Assembly: GCA_963845565.1 (NCBI GenBank) | Contig: CAWJSJ010000002.1 | Coordinates: 480,001 to 544,000, forward strand | Direction of reading: 5' to 3' | Length of the DNA stretch: 64,000 nt | Source of the DNA: an uncultured Methylomirabilota bacterium | GTDB lineage: Bacteria > Methylomirabilota > Methylomirabilia > Methylomirabilales > 2-02-FULL-66-22 | Shown: positions 7,172 to 42,305 of the stretch, piece after piece | Layout: every line of letters starts with the position of its first letter | Position numbering within the stretch: position 1 is the stretch's first letter | Program-made: the position numbers and the translations under genes | The notes under the pieces: model-generated | Told to the model about the DNA's origin: nothing | Seen by the model: only the letters and a program-made list of their open reading frames with translations | The model's database searches: none

Positions 7172-7311
7172 CAGGCTGCTGAACAAGGCCCATCTGCGGC
7201 GTTGACCCGCCTCGCCGCTCGCTGCGGCGTACCTCGTACGCCTCTCACTCGGCCTCGGGTACATCCGAGGACGGGGTGCCGCCTTGCATCTGGACCTTTT
7301 TGAGCAGCCTG
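7172..7311. repeat. Palindromic MITE/REP-like element, copy 1 (140 bp)
   Basis: Terminal inverted repeats CAGGCTGCTGAACAAGGCCCA / TGGACCTTTTTGAGCAGCCTG; homologous to 26519-26643; starts right after a TAG stop. Confidence 0.8.
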
Positions 7312-11377: not shown

Positions 11378-11490
11378 ACACCGTCAAGGTGTTCTGGATC
11401 TACGTCCTGGTCCTGCTGTCCGGCCTCCTCGTCGTCGCCTTCTTCCCCGCCATCACGCTGGTTGCCCCGAAACTCGTTCCGGTCAGCTAG
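11378..11490 (+). repeat. 113-bp direct repeat, copy 1 (orphan 3' end of a dctM)
   Basis: Matches 27997-28109 with 3 mismatches; encodes TVKVFWIYVLVLL...KLVPVS*. Confidence 0.9.
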
Positions 11491-26518: not shown

Positions 26519-26643
26519 TGGGTCGCTGAAAAAGGCCCATCTGTGTCGTTGGCACGCCTCGGCACTCGCTGCGGCGTACCTCCAGTACGCCTCGCTCGGC
26601 CTGTGGCGCGCCGCCTTGCATCTGGACCTTTTTGAGCAACCCA
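26519..26643. repeat. Palindromic MITE/REP-like element, copy 2 (125 bp)
   Basis: TGGGTCGCTGAAAAAGGCCCATCTG...CTCGCTGCGGCGTACCTC...GCCGCCTTGCATCTGGACCTTTTTGAGCAACCCA; starts right after a TGA stop. Confidence 0.8.
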
Positions 26644-27400: not shown

Positions 27401-28109
27401 TTTGGCCTGATGTTGCTGATCAACATCAAGGCGCGCCGCGGGAACTGGCCGCGGCCAACCGAGCGGGTCGCGGCGGCCGACGTCTGGCGCGCCGGCCGCC
27501 GAGCCATTATTCCCCTGATGACCCCCCAACATCATTTTCGGCGGGATCTTCTCGGGGGCCACGACCATAACCGAGTCGGCCGTCCTGGCCGTCGCCTACG
27601 CCGTGGTCGTGGGAACGATGGTCTTCAAGGAGATGTCCTGGCGGGCGACCTGGCGGATTTTCGTGGCGTCGGCCAGCACCAGCGGTATCGCCATGCTCTT
27701 GGTGGGAACGGCCACCGTGTTCGGCTGGAGCCTTGTCACCCAGCGGCTGCCCCACATGATCGCCGAGTGGATGGGGTCCGTCTCCAGCTACCCCTGGGTC
27801 TTCCTGGCGCTCACCATCCTCCTCTACCTGATCTTCAGCGATCTTTTGGAGGGACTTCCGGCCCTCTTGATCTTCGCGCCCATCCTCTACCCGACCGCCG
27901 AGCAGCTGCACGTGGATCCGGTCCACTTCGGCATCGTCTCGATCGCCGCGCTGGGCCTCTCCCTTTCCTGCAGCCTGGCCGGGGCGAACATGAGCGACAC
28001 CGTCAAGGTGTTCTGGATCTACGTCCTGGTCCTGCTGGCCGGCCTCCTCGTCGTCGCCTTCTTCCCCGCCATCACGCTGGTTGCCCTGAAACTCGTTCCG
28101 GTCAGCTAA
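27401..28109 (+). pseudogene. dctM: Truncated dctM (no 5' half, frameshift near 27525, TPP.G segment deleted)
   Basis: AIIPLMTP / IIFGGIFSGATTITESAVLAVAYA / DPVHFG; the usual TPPVG segment is missing. Confidence 0.8.
27997..28109 (+). repeat. 113-bp direct repeat, copy 2
   Basis: Matches 11378-11490 with 3 mismatches. Confidence 0.9.
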
Positions 28110-32516: not shown

Positions 32517-33974
32517 CTAGCCCGCGATCCCGGCCGCGGAGGCCCGGGCGAACTCCAGGATGGGGCCCGGGAAGATGCCGAGGAGCAGTGTTCCAGCCGC
32601 GGCGAGCAGCAGGGCGACCCGCAGCGTGGAGGAGGTGCTCAGGGCCAGGCCCTGCGGCGGCAGATCCCGCATGTACATCGCCACGACCACCCGCATGTAA
32701 AAGAAGAGGGAGATGGCGGAGTTGACGACGGCGATCAGGACCAACCAGATGTATCCCGCCTCGACCGCGGCGGCGAACAGGTAGAACTTGCCCACGAAAC
32801 CCGCCGTCGGCGGGATGCCCGTCAGCGAAAGCAGGAACAGCAACATGACGGCGGCGGACAGGGGGCTCTTCTGCGCCAGACCGGTGAAGTCGTCGATCTG
32901 ATCCCCGCGCACCGTCCCGCGCTGGAGCAGGATGACCATCCCGAAGGCGCCGATGGTCATCAGGGCGTACGTGAGGCTATAGAACAGGACCGCCGCGACG
33001 CCGAGCTGACTCCCCACCACCGGGCCGATCAGCAGGTACCCCATGTGGGCGATGGTGCTGTAGGCCAGCATGCGTTTCAGGTTGGCCTGGGCGATGGCCA
33101 CCAGATTCCCGATGGTCATGGTGAGCACCGCCAGGACCCAGAAGAGCAGGCTCCAGTCCACCTGCAGGGTGGGCATCGCCAGGAGGAAGACCCGCAGGAT
33201 GACGGCCATCCCCGCCAACTCTGCCGCGCCGGCCATGTAGGCCACCACCGGCGTGGGGGCGCCCTCGTACATGTCGGGCAGGTACATGTGGAAGGGAACG
33301 GCCGCGATCTTGAACCCGAACCCTGCCGCCAGAAGCACCATGGCCATGAGCAGCGCCGGGTTGCGGGGGCCGGCCATCGCCGCGGCCCTGGCAATCGTGT
33401 CCAGGCCGGTGCCACCCGCAAAGCCGTAGAGCAGGACCATGCCGTAGAGGAGGACGCCCGTCGAGAACGCGCCCATCAGGAGGTACTTGAGCGCCCCCTC
33501 GTTGCACCGCTGGTCTCTCTTGAGGAAGCCGCAGAGCGCGTACGTGCTGATGGACAGCGTCTCGAGCCCGACGAAGAGCGAGAGGAGGTCATACGCCGAG
33601 GCCATCAGCATGGCCCCCAGCGTGGCAAACAGCAGCAGGGCGTAGAACTCCCCTTCGGGGACCTGCTGGTCCTGCAGAAAGCGGACGGACAGCAGGATGA
33701 CGATCGCCGCGCTCACCAGGAAGACCAGCTTGAAGAAGGTCGCGTACATGTCGACCACGTGAAGCCCGCTGAAGACCACGGCCCGGGGTCCCGGGGCCTG
33801 TCGCAGCGCCAGCGCCGCGGCCACGGCGACCCCCACCAGGCTCACGCCTCCCAGCCAGCCCCGCTTCCCCGCCGGCACGGCGAAGTCCAGCGTCAAAACC
33901 AGGAGCCCCGCCACCGCGATGGCGACCTCGGGAAGAAGCTGGAGGAGGTCGGCGGGATTGAAGACCTGGGTCAT
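32517..33974 (-). CDS. nuoN: Complex I subunit N
   Basis: EGALKYLLMGA, FKIAAVPFHM..PD.YEGAP, NLKRMLAYS, GIPPTAGFVGK. Confidence 0.95.
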   Translation of the reverse strand: MTQVFNPADLLQLLPEVAIAVAGLLVLTLDFAVPAGKRGWLGGVSLVGVAVAAALALRQAPGPRAVVFSGLHVVDMYATFFKLVFLVSAAIVILLSVRFLQDQQVPEGEFYALLLFATLGAMLMASAYDLLSLFVGLETLSISTYALCGFLKRDQRCNEGALKYLLMGAFSTGVLLYGMVLLYGFAGGTGLDTIARAAAMAGPRNPALLMAMVLLAAGFGFKIAAVPFHMYLPDMYEGAPTPVVAYMAGAAELAGMAVILRVFLLAMPTLQVDWSLLFWVLAVLTMTIGNLVAIAQANLKRMLAYSTIAHMGYLLIGPVVGSQLGVAAVLFYSLTYALMTIGAFGMVILLQRGTVRGDQIDDFTGLAQKSPLSAAVMLLFLLSLTGIPPTAGFVGKFYLFAAAVEAGYIWLVLIAVVNSAISLFFYMRVVVAMYMRDLPPQGLALSTSSTLRVALLLAAAGTLLLGIFPGPILEFARASAAGIAG

Positions 33975-35681
33975 CGCCCGCCCTCACGGTCGTGCCATGC
34001 GGCAATGGGGCGATTCGGCAATTCGGCGATTAGGGTTCCGGAGCTGCCGAGTTGCCCAGTTGCCTGATTGCCCAGTCGCCCAGTGGCCGGATTGCCCACT
34101 TGCCCGGCCGCCGCCTTCTTCCCCTGCACCGCCTTGCCGGCCGCCCCCTTCTCCACCGTCTGGATCACGTTGGCAATCGAGACCTCCATCGCCCGGAGGA
34201 AGGGCGCCGGGTACAGGCCGATCCAGAAGCAGAGCGCGATGATGGGGACCAGCGTTGCGATCTCGCGGGCGTCGAGGTCCTTCAGTGTCTTGTTCTCCTC
34301 TTTGGTGATCTCGCCGAACATGGTGCGCTGATACAGCCACAGCATGTAGGCCGCCCCCAGCACGATGCCGGTCACCGCGAAGGCGCCCCACCACCAGCCG
34401 ACCTGGAACGCGCCGATGAGAATCAGGAACTCGCCGATGAAGCCGTTCAGCCCCGGCAGGCCCATGGAGGAGAACATGATGATGGCAAAGAGCGTGGCGT
34501 AGATGGGCATCTGCTTGGACAGGCCCCCGAGCTCCGCGATCTGGCGGGTGTGCCGCCGGTCGTAGATCAGACCCACGATCAGGAACAGCCCGCCGGTGGA
34601 GAGCCCGTGGTTGATCATCTGCAGGAGGCTTCCCTGGACGCCCTGGGCGTTGAAGGCAAACATCCCCAGCATGATGAAGCCCATGTGGCTCACCGAGCTG
34701 TAGGCGATCAGCCGCTTCATGTCGGGCTGGACCATGCACACCATCGCCCCGTAGATGATGGCGATGATGGACAAGACGAAGATCATCGGCACGAAGTGCT
34801 GGCTGGCCTCGGGGAACATGGGCAGGTTGAATCGCAGGAAGCCGTACGTCCCCATCTTCAGGAGGACGCCGGCCAGGATCACGGAGCCGGCCGTCGGGGC
34901 GTCGGTGTGGGCGTCCGGGAGCCAGGTGTGGAACGGGAACATCGGGACCTTGATGGCGAATGACAGGGCGAAGGAGAGCCAGACCAGGTCCTGGAAGCCC
35001 AGCGACACGCCCAGGAAGTCGAACACCGAACCGTTCGGATAGGCCACGCGCATCAGCGCCAGCACGTCGAAGGTGTACGTCCCGGTCTGCGCGCCGGCGT
35101 AGAAGTAGATCGCCAGGATCCCCAGCAGCATGACCACGCTGCCGAAGAGGGTATACAGGAAGAACTTGATGGCCGAGTACAGGCGGCGGTCGCTGCCCCA
35201 GACCCCGATCAGGAAGTACATGGGGACCAGCATGACCTCCCAGAACACGTAGAACAGGAAGAAGTCCAGCGCCAGGAACACGCCCAGCATCCCGGTCTCG
35301 AGGACCAGCATGAAGACGTAGTATTCCTTTGGCCCGGTGCTTGATGGACTCGAAGGAGCAGAGGATGGCGAGAGGGCTCAGGAACGTGGTCAGCATCACC
35401 AGCCACAGGCTGATCCCGTCCAGGCCGACGAAGTACGTCACGCCGAGGCTCGGGATCCAGCCGGCCCGCTCGACGAACTGCATCGCGGGGGTGGTCTGAT
35501 CGTACAGAAAGGGAACCGGCAGGGAGACGGCGAACGTGGCCACCGAGACGAGGAGCGCCAGGTTGCGCAGACTCCGGATCTGCTCCCGCCCCACCATGAG
35601 CAACAGGATCGCCCCCACCAGCGGCAGGAAGGTGATGAGGGACAGGATCGGAAAGCCGAGAACGTTCCCCTGCACGGTCAT
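33971..35681 (-). CDS. nuoM: Complex I subunit M; one frameshift near 35329, C-terminal tail made from a repeat
   Basis: GLDGISLWLV in one frame; FWEVMLVPM, KVPMFPFHTWLPDAH, DMKRLIAYSS in the next; one extra A in GCCAAAGGAATAC. Confidence 0.93.
34001..34106. repeat. Octamer-period inverted repeat (GGC[A/G]ATNN x4 / TGCCNNNT x8) within the nuoM 3' end
   Basis: ggcaatgg-ggcgattc-ggcaattc-ggcgatta ... tgccgagt-tgcccagt-tgcctgat-tgcccagt-cgcccagt-ggccggat-tgcccact. Confidence 0.75.
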
Positions 35682-35715: not shown

Positions 35716-37707
35716 CTAGAAGAAGAAGTACAAGGACACGATGACGAAAATCCCCATGGCCATGGCCAGGAGATAGTTTTGAAGCACGCCGGTCTGAATG
35801 CGACGGAAGGCCTGGCTTCCGCCTTGGATCAGGTCGGCGATGGCGTTGACCAGCCCATCCACGCCGCGGAAATCGAACTTCGCCGAGAGATGGCTCAGCG
35901 CCACGGTGAGCCAGCCCGTCCCGTTCACGGCCCCGTCCACCGCCTTGGCATCCACGGTCCACAGCCGGCCGCACAGTCGCTTCCCAAAATCCACGAAGAC
36001 GGCGTCATACAACTCGTCGATCTTGTATTTGTTGAGGAGGATGGCGTAGAGGCCCGAGAACCGGTCCGCCATCCGGGCGGGCGATGGATTGTCGCCCGTC
36101 TTGTACCAGGAGCGCGCCAGGCCCCAAATCGCCACGGCGGCGATGAGGGTGGCGACCGCCGCGAGCCCGACCGTGGTGCCGAGACTGATGGCGTGCACCT
36201 TGGTCCCGGCCGCCGCGAAGACCGGCTCCACGAAGCGGTGATACAGCCCGTGGTCGGGCGGGAAGCCGAAGACGGCCCCAACCAGCACGCTCCCGATGCC
36301 CAGGATCAGGAGGGGGTACGCCATCGCCGGTGGCGATTCATGGACGTGGTGGGCGACATGGTGGTCTACGTTGTCTTTCCCCTCGAACACGGTGTAGTAG
36401 AGGCGGAACATGTAAAATGCCGTCATGAAGGCGCCGGCCGACCCGAGCACCCATAGCAGGTAATGGTGGCCTGCGAACGCGGCGGCCAGAATTTCGTCCT
36501 TCGACCAGAAGCCGGCCAGCGGGATGATTCCGGCGTTGGCTAGGGAGGCCCAGTAGAAGGTCCGGCTCGTAATGGGGAGCTTGTTCTTGAGCTGACCCAT
36601 TTTTCGGATGTCCTGCTCCCCGCCGAGGGCGTGAATCACCGACCCCGATCCAAGAAAGAGCAGCGCCTTGAAGAACGCGTGCGTTGCCAGGTGGAAAATG
36701 GCGCTGGCGTAGGCCCCAACGCCGCACCCGAGGAACATGTACCCGAGCTGGGAGATGGTCGAGTAGGCCACCACCCGTTTGATATCGTTTTGGACCAGGG
36801 CGATGCTCGCCGCGAATACCGCGGTCACGGCCCCGATCACGGCCACCGTGGTCATGCTGAAGGGGGCCAAGTTGAAGAGGGCGCTGGAGCGGGCCACCAT
36901 GTACACGCCTGCCGTCACCATGGTGGCGGCGTGGATCAGGGCGGAGACCGGCGTGGGGCCTTCCATGGCGTCCGGCAGCCAGACGTAGAGGGGAAGCTGG
37001 GCGGACTTGCCGGCGGCCCCGATGAAGAGCAGAAGCGTCATCCAGGTCACCAGCGACAACCCGAAAACCGAGTCCCGCTCCAGGATCTCGCGGATCGCCT
37101 CGGCCTGGGGGAAGATCTCGGCGTACGCGACCGACCCGAAGGTCCGCCAGATCAGGAACAGGCCCAGCAGGAATCCGGCGTCCCCGATCCGGTTGACCAC
37201 GAACGCCTTCTTGCCCGCATCCGCCGCCGATTTCTTCTGGTACCAGAAGCCGATGAGCAGATACGAGCACAGGCCCACGCCTTCCCAGCCCAGGAACATC
37301 AGCAGGTAGTTGTTCGCCAGGACCAGAACCAGCATGGACGTCATGAACAGGTTCATGTAGGTGAAGAAGCGGGCATAGCCGGGGTCGCCGTGCATGTAGC
37401 CGATGGAATAGATGTGGATCAGGAGCCCCACGAAGGTGACGACGAGCATCATCACGGCCGACAGGGGATCCACCAGGAAGCCCACCGTCGCCTGGAACTC
37501 CCCGACCGGGATCCAGACATACACATCCCAGTTGAGCGTCGCTCCGCCGGCGGCCTGGAGGAAGATCCCGAAGGCGATCAGGAACGAGAGCCCCGTGGTG
37601 CCCACGCCCAGGAGGTGGGCGCGGTCCCGAGTCCACCGCCCGAAGATCCCATTGACCGCCACCCCCAAGAGGGGCAATGTTGGCACCAGCCAGACCAGAG
37701 ATAACAT
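35716..37707 (-). CDS. nuoL: Complex I subunit L
   Basis: GWEGVGLCSY, NRIGD, KSAQLPLYVWLPDAMEGPTPVSALIHAATMV, HAFFKALLFL. Confidence 0.96.
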   Translation of the reverse strand: MLSLVWLVPTLPLLGVAVNGIFGRWTRDRAHLLGVGTTGLSFLIAFGIFLQAAGGATLNWDVYVWIPVGEFQATVGFLVDPLSAVMMLVVTFVGLLIHIYSIGYMHGDPGYARFFTYMNLFMTSMLVLVLANNYLLMFLGWEGVGLCSYLLIGFWYQKKSAADAGKKAFVVNRIGDAGFLLGLFLIWRTFGSVAYAEIFPQAEAIREILERDSVFGLSLVTWMTLLLFIGAAGKSAQLPLYVWLPDAMEGPTPVSALIHAATMVTAGVYMVARSSALFNLAPFSMTTVAVIGAVTAVFAASIALVQNDIKRVVAYSTISQLGYMFLGCGVGAYASAIFHLATHAFFKALLFLGSGSVIHALGGEQDIRKMGQLKNKLPITSRTFYWASLANAGIIPLAGFWSKDEILAAAFAGHHYLLWVLGSAGAFMTAFYMFRLYYTVFEGKDNVDHHVAHHVHESPPAMAYPLLILGIGSVLVGAVFGFPPDHGLYHRFVEPVFAAAGTKVHAISLGTTVGLAAVATLIAAVAIWGLARSWYKTGDNPSPARMADRFSGLYAILLNKYKIDELYDAVFVDFGKRLCGRLWTVDAKAVDGAVNGTGWLTVALSHLSAKFDFRGVDGLVNAIADLIQGGSQAFRRIQTGVLQNYLLAMAMGIFVIVSLYFFF

Positions 37708-37797: not shown

Positions 37798-38106
37798 CTA
37801 CCACTTCATCAGGTTGATCTCGTCCACGTTGACCGTCTTGAAGTTGCGATATAGGCCCAGAACGATGGCCAGCCCCACTGCCGCCTCGGCCGCCGCGATG
37901 GTGATGATGAAGATCGCGAACACCTGGCCCTGCAACAGCGTCTGGGGGAGATACCGGGCGAAGGCGATGAAGTTCAGGCTCACGGCATTCAGCATGAGCT
38001 CGATGGACATCAGGATGGCGATGGCGTTCCGCCGGGTCAGCGCCCCGAAGACCCCCAGACTGAAGAGGATCGCCCCCAAGATCAAAAAATGGTTGAGCGG
38101 GATCAT
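37798..38106 (-). CDS. nuoK: Complex I subunit K
   Basis: [25 protein letters not shown]. Confidence 0.96.
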
Positions 38107-38187
38107 GGCGCCCTCACGGATCCGCGCGGCTCGGCCTTCTCGGCTTCCCTGTCGCGCTCCTGTCCCTTGCCCTGTCGCGTCGCCCCA

Positions 38188-38712: not shown

Positions 38713-38817
38713 TTAGGAGCCGTTACGAAATAACCTATACATCTCCTTCTATTTCGTTACGGCTCCTTATGCCGTTTCGGAATGTCTCCGCTCAACTAAT
38801 TCTTTGACAACGGCTTA
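38713..38817 (-). repeat. 105-bp composite TAA-bounded palindromic element in the nuoI slot
   Basis: Coding strand: TAA-GCCGTTGTCAAAGAAT...CGGCA-TAA-GGAGCCGTAACGAAAT-[19 nt]-ATTTCGTAACGGCTCC-TAA. Confidence 0.9.
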
Positions 38818-39900
38818 CTTCCAGAGCGCCAAGACCAGTCCCGTGACGATCAGGTTGGCGAACGCAATCGGGAGCAGGACTTTCCACGCGAAATCCATGA
38901 GCTGATCGACGCGCATCCGGTTGAGCGTCCAGCGCAGCCACATCATGACGAAGATCAGGAAGTAACACTTGACCTGGAACCAGACCAGCCCGAAGAGGCC
39001 GCGGGCGACCTCCGCGGGGAGCCCCGGTATCGGCAGCCACGGACCGCGCCAGCCGCCCAGGAAGATGGTGGTGGCGATGGCGGCCACGGCGAACATATTG
39101 GCGTACTCGGCAAGGAAAAAGATCGCAAACCGCATCCCGCTGTACTCGACGTGAAAGCCGGCCACCAGCTCCGACTCGGCCTCGGGGATGTCGAAGGGCA
39201 GCCGGTTACATTCGGCCAGCGCGCAGGTGAAGTAGACCAGGAACGCCACGACCTGGGGAAAGACGAACCAGCGCGGCAGGAAGCCGAACCAGGTCCCGCC
39301 CTGCGCTTCCACCAGTTGCCCCATGCTCATGGTGCCGGCCAGCATCACCGGCCCCAGCAGCGAGAGCACCAGGGGCACCTCGTAACTCACCGCCTGGGCG
39401 GCGGAGCGCATGGCGCCCAGCGTCGCGTATTTGTTGTTGGAGGACCAGCCCGCCATGATGATGCCGACGACCGTGAGCGACGAGATGGCCACCATATACA
39501 GGAGGCCGATGTTCAAGTCTTTGACGATCAGGCCGGGGGCCCAGGGGATCGTGACATACCCGGCCAGCGCAGCCGCGAAGACGACCATGGGGGCCAGCAC
39601 AAAGACCACCTTGTCCGCCCGCGCGGGGATGATGTCCTCCTTCAAGAGGAGCTTGATCCCGTCGGCGATGCTCTGCGCCCATCCGTGCCACCCCCCCACC
39701 CGCATGGGGCCGAAGCGCACCTGGATGTGTGCGCTGATCTTCCGCTCCCACCAGATCATGAACATGGAGGCGACGGAGATGTAGGCGATGATGACCCCCA
39801 CCACCACACCCATCACCACCAGCGTGGGGACGAGCCAGGGGAGCCCCCAGGCCGAGGTCACGGCGTACATCTGCTCGCAGAGTTCGGCAAACGTGATCAT
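38815..39900 (-). CDS. nuoH: Complex I subunit H
   Basis: ERKISAHIQVRFGPMR, ADGIKLLLKED, NRLPFDIPEAESELVAGF. Confidence 0.96.
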   Translation of the reverse strand: MITFAELCEQMYAVTSAWGLPWLVPTLVVMGVVVGVIIAYISVASMFMIWWERKISAHIQVRFGPMRVGGWHGWAQSIADGIKLLLKEDIIPARADKVVFVLAPMVVFAAALAGYVTIPWAPGLIVKDLNIGLLYMVAISSLTVVGIIMAGWSSNNKYATLGAMRSAAQAVSYEVPLVLSLLGPVMLAGTMSMGQLVEAQGGTWFGFLPRWFVFPQVVAFLVYFTCALAECNRLPFDIPEAESELVAGFHVEYSGMRFAIFFLAEYANMFAVAAIATTIFLGGWRGPWLPIPGLPAEVARGLFGLVWFQVKCYFLIFVMMWLRWTLNRMRVDQLMDFAWKVLLPIAFANLIVTGLVLALWK

Positions 39901-39945
39901 CGCGATTTCTGCCAATCCTGCGCCGGCCGGGGGGCGCCGCCCCGA

Positions 39946-41100
39946 TTACCGATCGATCTCGCCCAGCACGATGTCGATGCTGCCCAGGATCGCCACCGAA
40001 TCCGCCACCAGGCACCCCTTCATCATCACGGGCAGCGCGCTCAGGTTGCAGAAGGCCGGGGAGCGCACCTTGTACCGGTACGGCTTGGGTGTTCCATCGC
40101 TCACGAGGTAGAAGCCCAGCTCGCCCCGCGGGCTCTCCGTCCGAACGTACACCTGTCCCGCCGGCGGCTTGATCGTCTTGGGCATCTTGGCGGTGATCTC
40201 GCCCGAGGGAAGCTGGTCCAGCGCCTGCTCGATGATCTTGACGCTCTCCAGCATCTCCTGGCGGCGGACCAAGAATCGAGCCCAGACGTCACAGGTGTCG
40301 AAGACCGGGATGGCGAAGTCGAACCGGTCGTAGATCGAGTAGGGGTCGTTCCGGCGCAGGTCCCACTTGAGACCCGACGCCCGCAGCATCGGCCCCGACA
40401 GCCCCCAGTCGACGGCGCTCTTGGCGTCGATGACCCCGATACCCTGGATGCGCTTCTGGAACAGGATGTTGTCGGTGACCAGCGCATCGTACTCGGGAAT
40501 GCGCGGCTTGAACCACTCCAGGAAAGCCCGACAGTTGTCCAGCCATCCGTCCGGAAAGTCGAACGCCATGCCGCCGATGCGGTAGAAGCTGTAGTTCAGC
40601 CGCTGCCCGCTCACCGCCTCGAAGAGATCCAGGATCATCTCCCGCTCGCGGAAGCAGTAGATGAAGATGGTGAAGTTCCCCAGGTCCAGGCCGAACGTCC
40701 CCAGCCACAGGAGGTGGCTGGCGATGCGCTGCAGCTCGGCCAGGATCACCCGCATGTGCTCCGCCCGTGCCGGGACCTGCTGGCCCATGAGCCGCTCGAC
40801 GGTCAGGACGTAGCCGAAGTTCATGGACATGGAGGCCAGGTAGTCAAGCCGGTCGGTGTAGGGGACGACCTGGGGGTAGGTGCGGTTTTCCGCGATCTTC
40901 TCGTGGCAGCGATGCAGGTACCCGACGTATGGGATGCAGTCGGTGATCACCTCGCCGTCCAGCTTCAGCAAGAGGCGCAGCACGCCGTGGGTGGACGGGT
41001 GCTGGGGCCCCATGTTGACGTACATCTCCTCCATCGTCTCCCCGGTGTGCTCCATCATCACCGTGGTGCCGATGGGGGTCGGGAGGTTCGTGGTGTCCAT
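39946..41100 (-). CDS. nuoD: Complex I subunit D
   Basis: GPQHPSTHGVLR, GYLHR, DRLDY, ESPRGE, DIVLGEIDR; no NiFe CxxC motifs. Confidence 0.96.
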   Translation of the reverse strand: MDTTNLPTPIGTTVMMEHTGETMEEMYVNMGPQHPSTHGVLRLLLKLDGEVITDCIPYVGYLHRCHEKIAENRTYPQVVPYTDRLDYLASMSMNFGYVLTVERLMGQQVPARAEHMRVILAELQRIASHLLWLGTFGLDLGNFTIFIYCFREREMILDLFEAVSGQRLNYSFYRIGGMAFDFPDGWLDNCRAFLEWFKPRIPEYDALVTDNILFQKRIQGIGVIDAKSAVDWGLSGPMLRASGLKWDLRRNDPYSIYDRFDFAIPVFDTCDVWARFLVRRQEMLESVKIIEQALDQLPSGEITAKMPKTIKPPAGQVYVRTESPRGELGFYLVSDGTPKPYRYKVRSPAFCNLSALPVMMKGCLVADSVAILGSIDIVLGEIDR

Positions 41101-41161
41101 CAGGATGTCGCTTTCCGCCCCGCGAACCCGCCGCCGGGGCGCGCCCATCGCGTCTCGATCG

Positions 41162-41224
41162 CGTTACGGCTCCTTATGCCGTTCCCGGAATTTCTCCGGT
41201 CACGTTATTCTTTGACAGCGGCTT
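41162..41224 (-). repeat. Partial copy of the 105-bp element; supplies the nuoC C-terminus and stop
   Basis: AAGCCGCTGTCAAAGAATAAC...GGAGAAATTCCGGGAACGGCA-TAA-GGAGCCGTAACG. Confidence 0.85.
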
Positions 41225-41752
41225 GGGGGGTTCGGCTTTGGCCGCCTTGGGCGCACCCTTGGCCGCTTCCGTCTTGGCGACCTTCTCCTCCATCCCGTAG
41301 TCGGTGTACGGGACCAGCCGCTCGTCCGTGTAATCCTTCCGCAGCGGGTAGCCGACCCAGTCCTCGGGGAGCAGGATGCGCCGGTGGTCGGGATGCCCGT
41401 CGAACTGGACGCCGAACAGGTCGAAACATTCCCGCTCGTGCCAGTCCGCCGCTCGCCAGAGGTCCGACACGCTCCGCACCACGGGATGGTCCCGGTCGAC
41501 CCTCACGCGCAGATGCGCCTTGTGCGGATGGCGCAGCGACGAGAGGTTGTACACGACTTCCAGGTGCGTCGTCCAGTCCGCGCCGCTGAGGCAGTTGAGG
41601 TACTCGAAGCCGAGGTCGCGGAGGAACTCGCACACCGGCCGGCCGCTTTCAGCCGCGGTCGTGAGGCGCACCTCGGCGCCCTTGACCTCGGTCTCGCTGA
41701 GGGCGTCACCGAACTTTTGCTTGAGTTGTTCGAGAATCTCGTCCGGTGTCAT
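41174..41752 (-). CDS. nuoC: Complex I subunit C
   Basis: ADWHERECFDLFGVQFDGHPDHRRILLPEDWVGYPLRKDY. Confidence 0.95.
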   Translation of the reverse strand: MTPDEILEQLKQKFGDALSETEVKGAEVRLTTAAESGRPVCEFLRDLGFEYLNCLSGADWTTHLEVVYNLSSLRHPHKAHLRVRVDRDHPVVRSVSDLWRAADWHERECFDLFGVQFDGHPDHRRILLPEDWVGYPLRKDYTDERLVPYTDYGMEEKVAKTEAAKGAPKAAKAEPPKPLSKNNVTGEIPGTA

Positions 41753-41763
41753 GTCTCACGCAC

Positions 41764-41841
41764 GGCAATTGGGCGATTTGGCAACGTGGCAATCAGGAAA
41801 GCCGTCCCCCGATTGCCAAGTTGCCCGGTCGCCGAGTCGCC
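41764..41841. repeat. Octamer-period inverted repeat upstream of nuoC
   Basis: ggcaattg-ggcgattt-ggcaacgt-ggcaatca ... gattgcca-agttgccc-ggtcgccg-agtcgcc. Confidence 0.75.
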
Positions 41842-41843
41842 TC

Positions 41844-41948
41844 TTAGGAGCCGTTACGAAATAATTCGGCCATTGTTGTAATTTCGTTACGGCTCCTTAT
41901 GCCGCTCCCGGAATTTCTCCGATCAAGTTATTTTTTGACAGCGGCTTA
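41844..41948 (-). repeat. 105-bp composite TAA-bounded palindromic element in the nuoB slot
   Basis: TAA-GCCGCTGTCAAAAAAT...CGGCA-TAA-GGAGCCGTAACGAAAT-[18 nt]-ATTTCGTAACGGCTCC-TAA. Confidence 0.9.
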
Positions 41949-42305
41949 GACCCACTCCAACGCCTTCTTCTTCCAGGCGTAGGCCAGCCCCACGAGGAGG
42001 ATGCCGATGAAGATCATCATCTCGACGAAGGCGAACAGCCCCATCTCCCGGAACACGATGGCCCAGGGAAACAGGAACACCGTCTCGACCGCGAAGATGA
42101 TATAGACGAGCGCATAGAGATAGTACCGCACGTGGAACCGGATCCACCCGATGCCGATGGGCTCCTCGCCGCACTCGTAACTCGTGAGCTTGCGAGGGGT
42201 CGGGTTGTCCGGACGGATGATCCGCGAGACGACCTCGATGTTGAGGATGACGAAAAGGGCGCCGACGATCAGGAAAAATCCGGCGTAGGCATAATCCGCT
42301 GCCAT
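41946..42305 (-). CDS. nuoA: Complex I subunit A
   Basis: SYECGEEP, RYYLYAL..IIF.VET.FLFPWA, YAWKKKALEW. Confidence 0.95.
   Translation of the reverse strand: MAADYAYAGFFLIVGALFVILNIEVVSRIIRPDNPTPRKLTSYECGEEPIGIGWIRFHVRYYLYALVYIIFAVETVFLFPWAIVFREMGLFAFVEMMIFIGILLVGLAYAWKKKALEWV

What the first reader, a model, noticed from the sequence alone, without database searches (positions are those of the whole stretch)
38713..41948. The nuoB and nuoI slots of the complex I operon each hold the same 105-bp palindromic element
Seen: the gene order is nuoA-[element]-nuoC-[partial element]-nuoD-nuoH-[element]-nuoJKLMN. Both full copies begin at the upstream gene's TAA stop and have the form TAA-[45-46 bp self-complementary unit]-TAA-[16-bp inverted repeat GGAGCCGTAACGAAAT around a variable 18-19-nt spacer]-TAA. 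Known: nuoB (cluster N2) normally follows nuoA and nuoI (2x4Fe-4S) follows nuoH; these are the Fe-S subunits of the core. Inference: the element may be the scar or att site of a system that excises or swaps Fe-S subunit genes, or a TAA-targeting MITE whose copies recombined out these genes. Duller options are that nuoB/I sit elsewhere in this lineage or that the assembly collapsed across the repeat.
Basis: partly seen in the sequence, partly recalled or inferred. Interest (0 to 1): 0.85.

Follow-up and report, generated by a model that had tools for sequence, protein, structure and literature searches.

The report
Miniature transposons in split complex I
The palindromes in this respiratory complex I operon are three of about 220 copies of a small non-coding repeat, likely a miniature transposon moved by an ISAzo13-family transposase, and the two 'missing' genes lie intact elsewhere in the genome just as in relatives without the repeat, so this is ordinary selfish DNA and not a gene-excision scar.

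Summary
The 105-bp element has 221 copies in this genome, 190 of them full length. nuoB and nuoI lie intact as a pair on another contig. All 27 of 27 relatives whose locus held both nuoA and nuoC lack nuoB there, and 22 of 27 lack nuoI between nuoH and nuoJ; none has the element in either slot. The genome's second complex I operon also lacks both genes and holds no element. The two slot copies are only 81% alike and belong to different subfamilies. The element's right end closes ISAzo13 transposase genes in two metagenome contigs, and autonomous ISAzo13 elements have similar ends with TAA/TTA flanks. So it is most likely an ISAzo13-type MITE. No ISAzo13 transposase was found in this genome. 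One oddity remains: the right TAA is nearly fixed while the left triplet varies, even in young copies. This scan had already noted this repeat family in this genome, ISAzo13-type MITEs elsewhere, and the split nuo layout in other Methylomirabilis genomes.

The parts
41946..42305 (-). nuoA; its TAA stop is the left triplet of the element copy
   Evidence: NF005839 E 1.5e-40, below its cut-off
41844..41948 (-). Full MITE copy between nuoA and nuoC, of the more diverged subfamily (20 differences from the commonest sequence); absent at this site in G009
41174..41752 (-). nuoC; its last 16 codons and TAA stop come from the partial element
   Evidence: (TIGR01961 over cut-off)
41162..41224 (-). Partial MITE copy (left unit, inner TAA, start of the arm). 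G009 has a full copy at the same site, so the right half was likely lost later by a deletion
39946..41148 (-). nuoD (start codon uncertain); ends in TAA, with no element after it
38815..39915 (-). nuoH; its TAA stop is the left triplet of the element copy
38713..38817 (-). Full MITE copy between nuoH and nuoJ, of the young subfamily (1 difference from the commonest sequence); absent in G009 and in a close relative's contig in run X16
38770..38814 (-). Left 45-nt unit: starts with a degenerate ISAzo13-like terminal repeat, folds as a branched hairpin
38716..38766 (-). Right hairpin unit: two 16-nt arms around a 19-nt spacer. The outer arm is the right terminal repeat, the same 20-mer that ends ISAzo13 elements L326 and L332
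38188..38679 (-). nuoJ, followed by nuoK (37798-38106), nuoL (35716-37707), nuoM (33971-35681, one frameshift near 35328) and nuoN (32517-33974)

Best explanation
The three repeats are copies of a genome-wide 105-bp non-coding element, likely a MITE mobilised in trans by an ISAzo13-family DDE transposase, which likely inserted independently at or near the ends of nuoA, nuoC and nuoH long after nuoB and nuoI had left this operon. SHOWN: copy number, the location of nuoB-nuoI, the same gene layout in element-free relatives, presence/absence of single copies, and end identity with ISAzo13 elements. INFERRED: a transposase supplied in trans binds the roughly 25-bp terminal repeats, excises the element and inserts it at a TAA-like triplet. 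In a 66% GC genome, gene ends are where such triplets occur and where insertion is harmless. The two-hairpin body likely arose when one mini-element inserted at the TAA flank of another. Finding copies in both Fe-S slots is likely a coincidence.
For: 221 copies, 190 full length. 81 of 186 copies with resolved ends follow the stop of a co-oriented gene; 60 of 671 TAA-ending genes carry one (home-made gene caller). nuoB (178 aa, TIGR01957 over cut-off) and nuoI (172 aa, TIGR01971 E 1e-29, below cut-off, two CxxCxxCxxxCP motifs) are adjacent at C1:677340-678425. Relatives: nuoA-nuoC adjacent without nuoB in 27 of 27 loci that held both genes (29 loci examined; gap as short as 2 bp in family f7). 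nuoH-nuoJ adjacent without nuoI in 22 of 27 (29 examined; the other 5 keep nuoI in place). nuoB followed by nuoI in 19 of 29 nuoB loci, none with the element in front. The element's end motif occurs in 5 of 251 genomes of the phylum, all in one genus, whereas the nuoB gap spans five families. The second operon (C2:650038-662929) lacks B and I and has no element. Empty alleles: G009 at both slots, and a 553-nt contig of run X16 joining nuoH to nuoJ with neither element nor nuoI. A triplet of copies within 3.3 kb arises in 72% of 1000 random placements at gene ends. ISAzo13 link: of 126 matches to the right-end 20-mer in 124 metagenome loci, 2 directly follow a PF07592 gene (L326, L332; E 7e-76 and 4e-15), and L326 has a matching left repeat, 22 of 24 bases. 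24 of 37 ISAzo13 loci gave resolvable ends: 13 TAA/TAA, 9 TTA/TTA, 2 mixed. Tandem copies sharing one TAA occur (L315, L394, L408).
Against: No PF07592 match in this genome (98.7% complete) or in G004, G012 and G013; G009 has only a fragment with a different right end. The enzyme that moved the young copies was therefore not found. A plain 3-bp duplication does not fit fully. Among 56 young copies the left triplet is TAA in 42 and the right in 55 (Fisher p = 0.0004). Only 3 of 186 copies have a left TTA, whereas autonomous ISAzo13 elements use both orientations. The end-finding script gave a bonus to TAA/TTA flanks. A fourth copy sits 16 bp upstream of the nuoB start, so both slots and nuoB itself are marked. 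Copies are mildly clustered (71 of 221 have a neighbour within 3.3 kb, against 49 expected; p = 0.006). Transposition was not observed.
Confidence: 0.9

Rival explanations
1. The elements are att sites or scars of a system that excises or swaps the nuoB and nuoI genes, or MITE copies recombined these genes out.
For: Copies lie in both canonical slots, and one lies just upstream of the relocated nuoB.
Against: Element-free relatives in five families already lack nuoB here, and those in four families lack nuoI. No copy follows nuoI. The slot copies are 81% alike and of different subfamilies. G009 has the same layout with both slots empty. The second operon lacks B and I without elements. By hand calculation, three copies over the operon's eight junctions hit both slots with probability 6/56 = 0.11.
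Confidence: 0.01
2. The element is a PATE/REP-like derivative of an HUH (IS200/IS605 or RAYT) transposon that inserts 3' of a TAA-like target without duplicating it.
For: Two hairpins, a fixed orientation relative to TAA, and a variable left but fixed right triplet. In 2 of 8 clean sites with a non-TAA left triplet, the G009 empty site equals the left triplet exactly. The genome has four Y1 transposase genes.
Against: The four Y1 genes have unrelated flanks and no copy within 3 kb. The exact right-end 20-mer terminates ISAzo13 transposase genes, and the left end is in register with ISAzo13 terminal repeats. In 3 of the same 8 sites the empty allele is TAA, as a plain duplication with later mutation predicts.
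Confidence: 0.06
3. The assembly collapsed across the repeat and dropped nuoB and nuoI.
For: The repeat is high-copy, and the assembly has frameshifts that look like indel errors (nuoM near 35328).
Against: Other contigs bridge both full copies. nuoB and nuoI are assembled elsewhere. Relatives share the layout.
Confidence: 0.01
4. The hairpins have been retained as regulatory elements (mRNA stability or processing) tuning complex I subunit levels.
For: Strong folding; three copies in one respiratory operon, with copies also beside other respiratory and ATP synthase clusters.
Against: Not conserved at these sites even in the closest relative. No terminator-like match in the elements. Copies lie next to unrelated genes genome-wide.
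Confidence: 0.02

Closest known systems
ISAzo13-family insertion sequences (transposase Pfam PF07592 DDE_Tnp_ISAZ013; eukaryotic relative Zator)
   Same: The right-end 20-mer is identical to that of L326 and L332. The left end is in register with family terminal repeats (G, then 14 nt, then TAA[C/A]T). TAA flanks. PMC10045372 (passage read) says ISAzo13 and Zator make 3-bp target duplications.
   Different: No transposase gene. 105 bp instead of about 1.3 kb. An internal third repeat. Almost only one orientation relative to TAA, and a right triplet more fixed than the left.
Bacterial MITEs (Correia/NEMIS, RUP, ERIC; names recalled or taken from earlier scan notes)
   Same: Short, non-coding, high-copy, end repeats shared with an IS family, patchy between close relatives, sometimes adds codons to a gene end.
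   Different: Different parent family and sequence. No Rfam match and no real plasmid match.
PATEs / REP elements (HUH Y1 transposase derivatives)
   Same: Hairpin-rich, oriented insertion, asymmetric flanks.
   Different: Ends match a DDE family; resident Y1 genes have unrelated flanks.
Canonical nuoA-N operon, and split layouts such as Nitrospina gracilis NUO-2 (PMC3578206, passages read)
   Same: All 11 core subunits of the window's complex are encoded in the genome. In Nitrospina, nuoB2 is likewise outside the nuoACHIJKLMN cluster.
   Different: Here nuoB and nuoI form their own pair in families f1, f6 and f7. Family f4 keeps nuoI in place with nuoB alone elsewhere, and most f5 genomes examined keep both in the operon.

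Membership tests
MITE | Short, non-coding, many dispersed copies | tested here: met
   105 bp; 221 copies on all 6 contigs
MITE | Evidence of mobility (filled and empty orthologous sites) | tested here: met
   36 of 186 sites aligned as empty alleles in the 2.3 Mb held of G009's roughly 5.9 Mb, 24 cleanly; X16 contig
MITE | Terminal inverted repeats | tested here: met
   Imperfect: 16 of 25 positions by hand comparison of the older-subfamily ends; internally deleted forms keep only the two ends
ISAzo13-derived element | Ends shared with an autonomous element encoding a PF07592 transposase | tested here: met
   L326 and L332; family ends
ISAzo13-derived element | 3-bp target duplication (TAA/TTA) | tested here: inconclusive
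   112 of 186 copies are TAA/TAA and empty sites hold one triplet, but left and right often differ with the right staying TAA
ISAzo13-derived element | Cognate transposase available in the host | tested here: inconclusive
   None in G000, G004, G012 or G013; a fragment in G009; PF07592 matches in 7 of 21 genomes of the genus. These are MAGs and the enzyme may have been lost.
ISAzo13-derived element | Mobilised by that transposase | not testable with these tools
   Needs a transposition assay
PATE / IS200-IS605 derivative | Ends shared with a Y1 transposase element | tested here: not met
   Four Y1 genes, unrelated flanks; only this genome's Y1 genes were examined
Site-specific gene excision system (att scars) | Gene present in place where the site is unrecombined, and excised gene bounded by the sites | tested here: not met
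   Empty alleles also lack nuoB/nuoI; no copy after nuoI
Complex I with complete core gene set | nuoB and nuoI present with Fe-S ligands | tested here: met
   NuoB Cys38, 39, 104, 135; NuoI two CxxCxxCxxxCP motifs

The most novel reading that the evidence does not exclude
ISAzo13 transposases do not simply duplicate the target: the element's right end carries its donor TAA into the new site, in the manner recalled for piggyBac's TTAA overhangs. This would fix the family's orientation and overwrite imperfect targets such as TAG, TGA or CAA, so that about 190 natural insertions in one genome record the chemistry of this IS family.
Probability: 0.25. Interest if true: 0.5.

Novelty: new member of a known kind. 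Interest (0 to 1): 0.15.

Why it matters
As proposed (programmed removal of Fe-S subunit genes) it would have mattered a great deal, but that reading fails. What remains is modest: an unnamed ISAzo13-type MITE that has expanded in one genus of Methylomirabilota and can rewrite protein ends (NuoC); a stepwise-looking relocation of nuoB and nuoI across an order, which annotators should not read as gene loss; and a junction asymmetry that could make the insertion chemistry of ISAzo13 testable.

Tried and rejected
Rfam: only two chance MIR7486 hits (E 0.26 and 0.41), outside the element. Plasmid blastn: only five partial E = 0.9 hits. Viral contigs: 0 matches to the end 20-mer. IS4/IS5-type DDE_Tnp_1 (PF01609): 0 matches in this genome. 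Y1 transposases as movers: rejected. I looked for an autonomous element in G000 by pairing 38 stray left ends with 33 stray right ends. Most pairs were short deleted forms; the two long pairings (4.2 and 4.8 kb) end in right ends that appear to belong to short deleted copies and were not translated. Promoter/terminator scan: nothing in the elements. Joints between element copies in run contigs (for example 41223 back to 38711 in X8) were rejected as circles: short sides, unknown letters between, expected from other copies of a repeat. No long or raw reads were offered. The test for overwriting of targets was weak: TAA/TAA copies have a non-TAA empty allele in 10 of 15 sites, against 31 of 99 control stops (p = 0.018) and 116 of 302 intergenic TAA (p = 0.055). 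The orientation of further copies within single ISAzo13 families (G238, G240, G241) stayed unchecked. Literature: searches for Methylomirabilis with complex I/nuo terms, split nuoB/nuoI, MITE/stop codon, ISAzo13 and Zator listed no paper on this element or this layout; only listings were seen. PMC7190074 and PMC3624274 are not held.
Full report
OBSERVATION. The description is accurate. On the minus strand the window holds nuoA, C, D, H, J, K, L, M, N. A 105-nt element begins at the TAA stop of nuoA (41844-41948) and another at that of nuoH (38713-38817). Each has the form TAA, a 45/46-nt unit, TAA, a 16-nt arm, an 18/19-nt spacer, the inverted arm, TAA, and folds far better than shuffles (z -8.3 and -6.5). 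The two copies share only 87 of 107 aligned columns. The partial copy (41162-41224) overlaps nuoC and supplies its last 16 codons and stop. Other contigs bridge both full copies (L379, L380; X1; X15), so this is not a collapse. Their independence from the source sample is unknown.

THE ELEMENT IS A GENOME-WIDE REPEAT. A profile finds 221 copies on all six contigs, 190 full length. Of 186 copies with resolved ends, 81 directly follow the stop of a co-oriented gene, and 60 of 671 TAA-ending genes carry one (home-made gene caller, 4512 genes). There is a young subfamily (56 copies within 2 differences of the commonest sequence) and a more diverged one. The nuoH copy is young (1 difference) and the nuoA copy is diverged (20). 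The end motif occurs in 5 of 251 genomes of the phylum, all in the window's genus. The lineage is Methylomirabilota by the titles of the best NuoC relatives. Metagenome contigs show the family is common elsewhere, also in AT-rich surroundings; their hosts were not identified.

nuoB AND nuoI WERE NOT CUT OUT BY IT. An intact nuoB-nuoI pair lies at C1:677340-678425, with the expected cysteine ligands. Of 29 relatives' nuoC loci, 27 held nuoA too; all 27 have nuoA next to nuoC with gaps of 2-277 bp, and none has the element there. Of 29 nuoJ loci, 27 held nuoH: 22 lack nuoI and 5 (families f2, f4, f5) keep it; none has the element. Of 29 nuoB loci, 19 have nuoI directly behind and none has the element in front. 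Three f5 genomes keep nuoB in the operon, while G028 of f5 showed no nuoA within 1.5 kb of its nuoB. The in-operon NuoB of G035 is 81% and the in-operon NuoI of G024 67% identical to the relocated proteins, which suggests these are the genes of this operon (inferred; no tree was built). The genome's second complex I operon (A-C-D-E-F-G-H-J-N, C2:650038-662929) lacks B and I too and has no element inside. The closest relative, G009, has both slots empty but a full copy at the nuoC site, and a contig of run X16 joins nuoH to nuoJ with neither element nor nuoI. The relocation is thus far more widespread than the element. Against a pure coincidence: a fourth, young copy sits 16 bp before the nuoB start, and copies cluster mildly (71 of 221 with a neighbour within 3.3 kb, against 49 expected; p = 0.006). 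But no copy follows nuoI, and at least one triplet within 3.3 kb appears in 72% of 1000 random placements.

WHAT MOVES IT. A metagenome scan with the right-end 20-mer gave 126 matches in 124 loci. Most are copies of the same short element, but in L326 and L332 the motif directly closes a transposase gene of Pfam PF07592 DDE_Tnp_ISAZ013. L326 is a 1283-bp element with a matching left repeat and TAA on both sides; its transposase reads as two ORFs. L344 is a different short element with the same repeats. Of 37 ISAzo13 loci examined, 24 gave resolvable ends with similar repeats and TAA/TAA (13), TTA/TTA (9) or mixed (2) flanks. The script favoured such flanks, and 13 loci were unresolved or cut. 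PMC10045372 (one passage read) states that ISAzo13 and Zator generate 3-bp duplications. The MITE's left end aligns in register with these repeats. Internally deleted forms keep only the two ends, and tandem copies share one TAA, which suggests how the two-hairpin body arose (inferred). No PF07592 match exists in this genome or in three of the four other carriers; G009 has a fragment with a different end. The mover itself is therefore inferred. Four Y1 transposases have unrelated flanks.

UNEXPLAINED. The flanks are asymmetric. The left triplet is TAA in 120 of 186 copies (TGA 21, CAA 15, TAG 8, TAC 8, TTA 3) and the right in 167. Among young copies the figures are 42 and 55 of 56 (p = 0.0004). 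In G009 (2.3 of about 5.9 Mb held), 24 clean empty sites gave mixed signals. Of 8 with a non-TAA left triplet and a right TAA, the empty allele equals the left in 2, shares its first C in 2, is TAA in 3 and differs otherwise in 1. Of 15 TAA/TAA copies only 5 have a TAA empty allele, against 68 of 99 control stops and 186 of 302 intergenic TAA. This may mean the donor TAA travels with the right end. The piggyBac parallel is recalled; I saw only the titles of Mitra 2008 and Li 2013 in a reference list. The numbers are small and G009 is about 10% diverged.

KNOWN AND NEW. MITEs are a known kind and ISAzo13 a known family. My searches (listings only) showed no paper on this element or on this layout in Methylomirabilota, but many relevant journals are not held. 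Nitrospina gracilis has a nuoB outside its nuoACHIJKLMN cluster (PMC3578206, passages read). PMC9208149 (passages) gives only ISAzo13 distribution. Earlier scan notes describe this family in this genome as PATE-like (e1-9895724; my data point to ISAzo13 instead), ISAzo13-type MITEs in other genomes, and the split nuo layout in Methylomirabilis. The ISAzo13 notes were looked up after the link was found here.

VERDICT. Observation confirmed; excision reading refuted. An ISAzo13-type MITE in an operon that lost nuoB and nuoI earlier. New member of a known kind; interest 0.15.

Noticed in passing
window 35328 (nuoM, 33971-35681): nuoM has one frameshift: an extra T relative to G009 in a short T run, likely an assembly indel. 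Similar breaks occur in the second nuoI (C1:718343) and second nuoM (C2:660455).
   Followed up: partly
G000 C2:650038-662929; C1:709703; C1:718125: Second complex I operon with nuoEFG, also lacking nuoB and nuoI. A second nuoB lies behind an IscA/HesB-like gene (name recalled) and a second nuoI 8 kb further on. In many relatives this operon lies about 11 kb from the first.
   Followed up: partly
window 41764-41841 and 34052-34110: Inverted arrays of a 7-9-nt word between the element and nuoC and at the end of nuoM; relatives have related arrays of varying length in the nuoA-nuoC gap.
   Followed up: no
window 7178-7255 and 26525-26602; L029; G000 C2:345599-345796: A second MITE-like family with other ends. 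It sits at the nuoA stop in G019 and at a stop in G000 where G009 has the 105-bp element, so the same stop codons attract different elements.
   Followed up: no
window 11378-11489 and 27997-28108: 112-nt direct repeat, 98% identical, 16.6 kb apart.
   Followed up: no
G000 C3:54130, C1:43672, C2:1922155, C2:558266: Four Y1 (HUH) transposase genes in open frames of about 350 aa; three of them are bracketed by short inverted repeats unrelated to this element.
   Followed up: partly
L298, L308, L334: Longer (126-130 bp) variants of the element with an extra insert before the inner TAA, in AT-rich contigs.
   Followed up: no
window 38106-38181: The nuoJ-nuoK spacer is replaced or skipped in contigs of runs X3 and X4, another variable intergenic site in this operon.
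   Followed up: no
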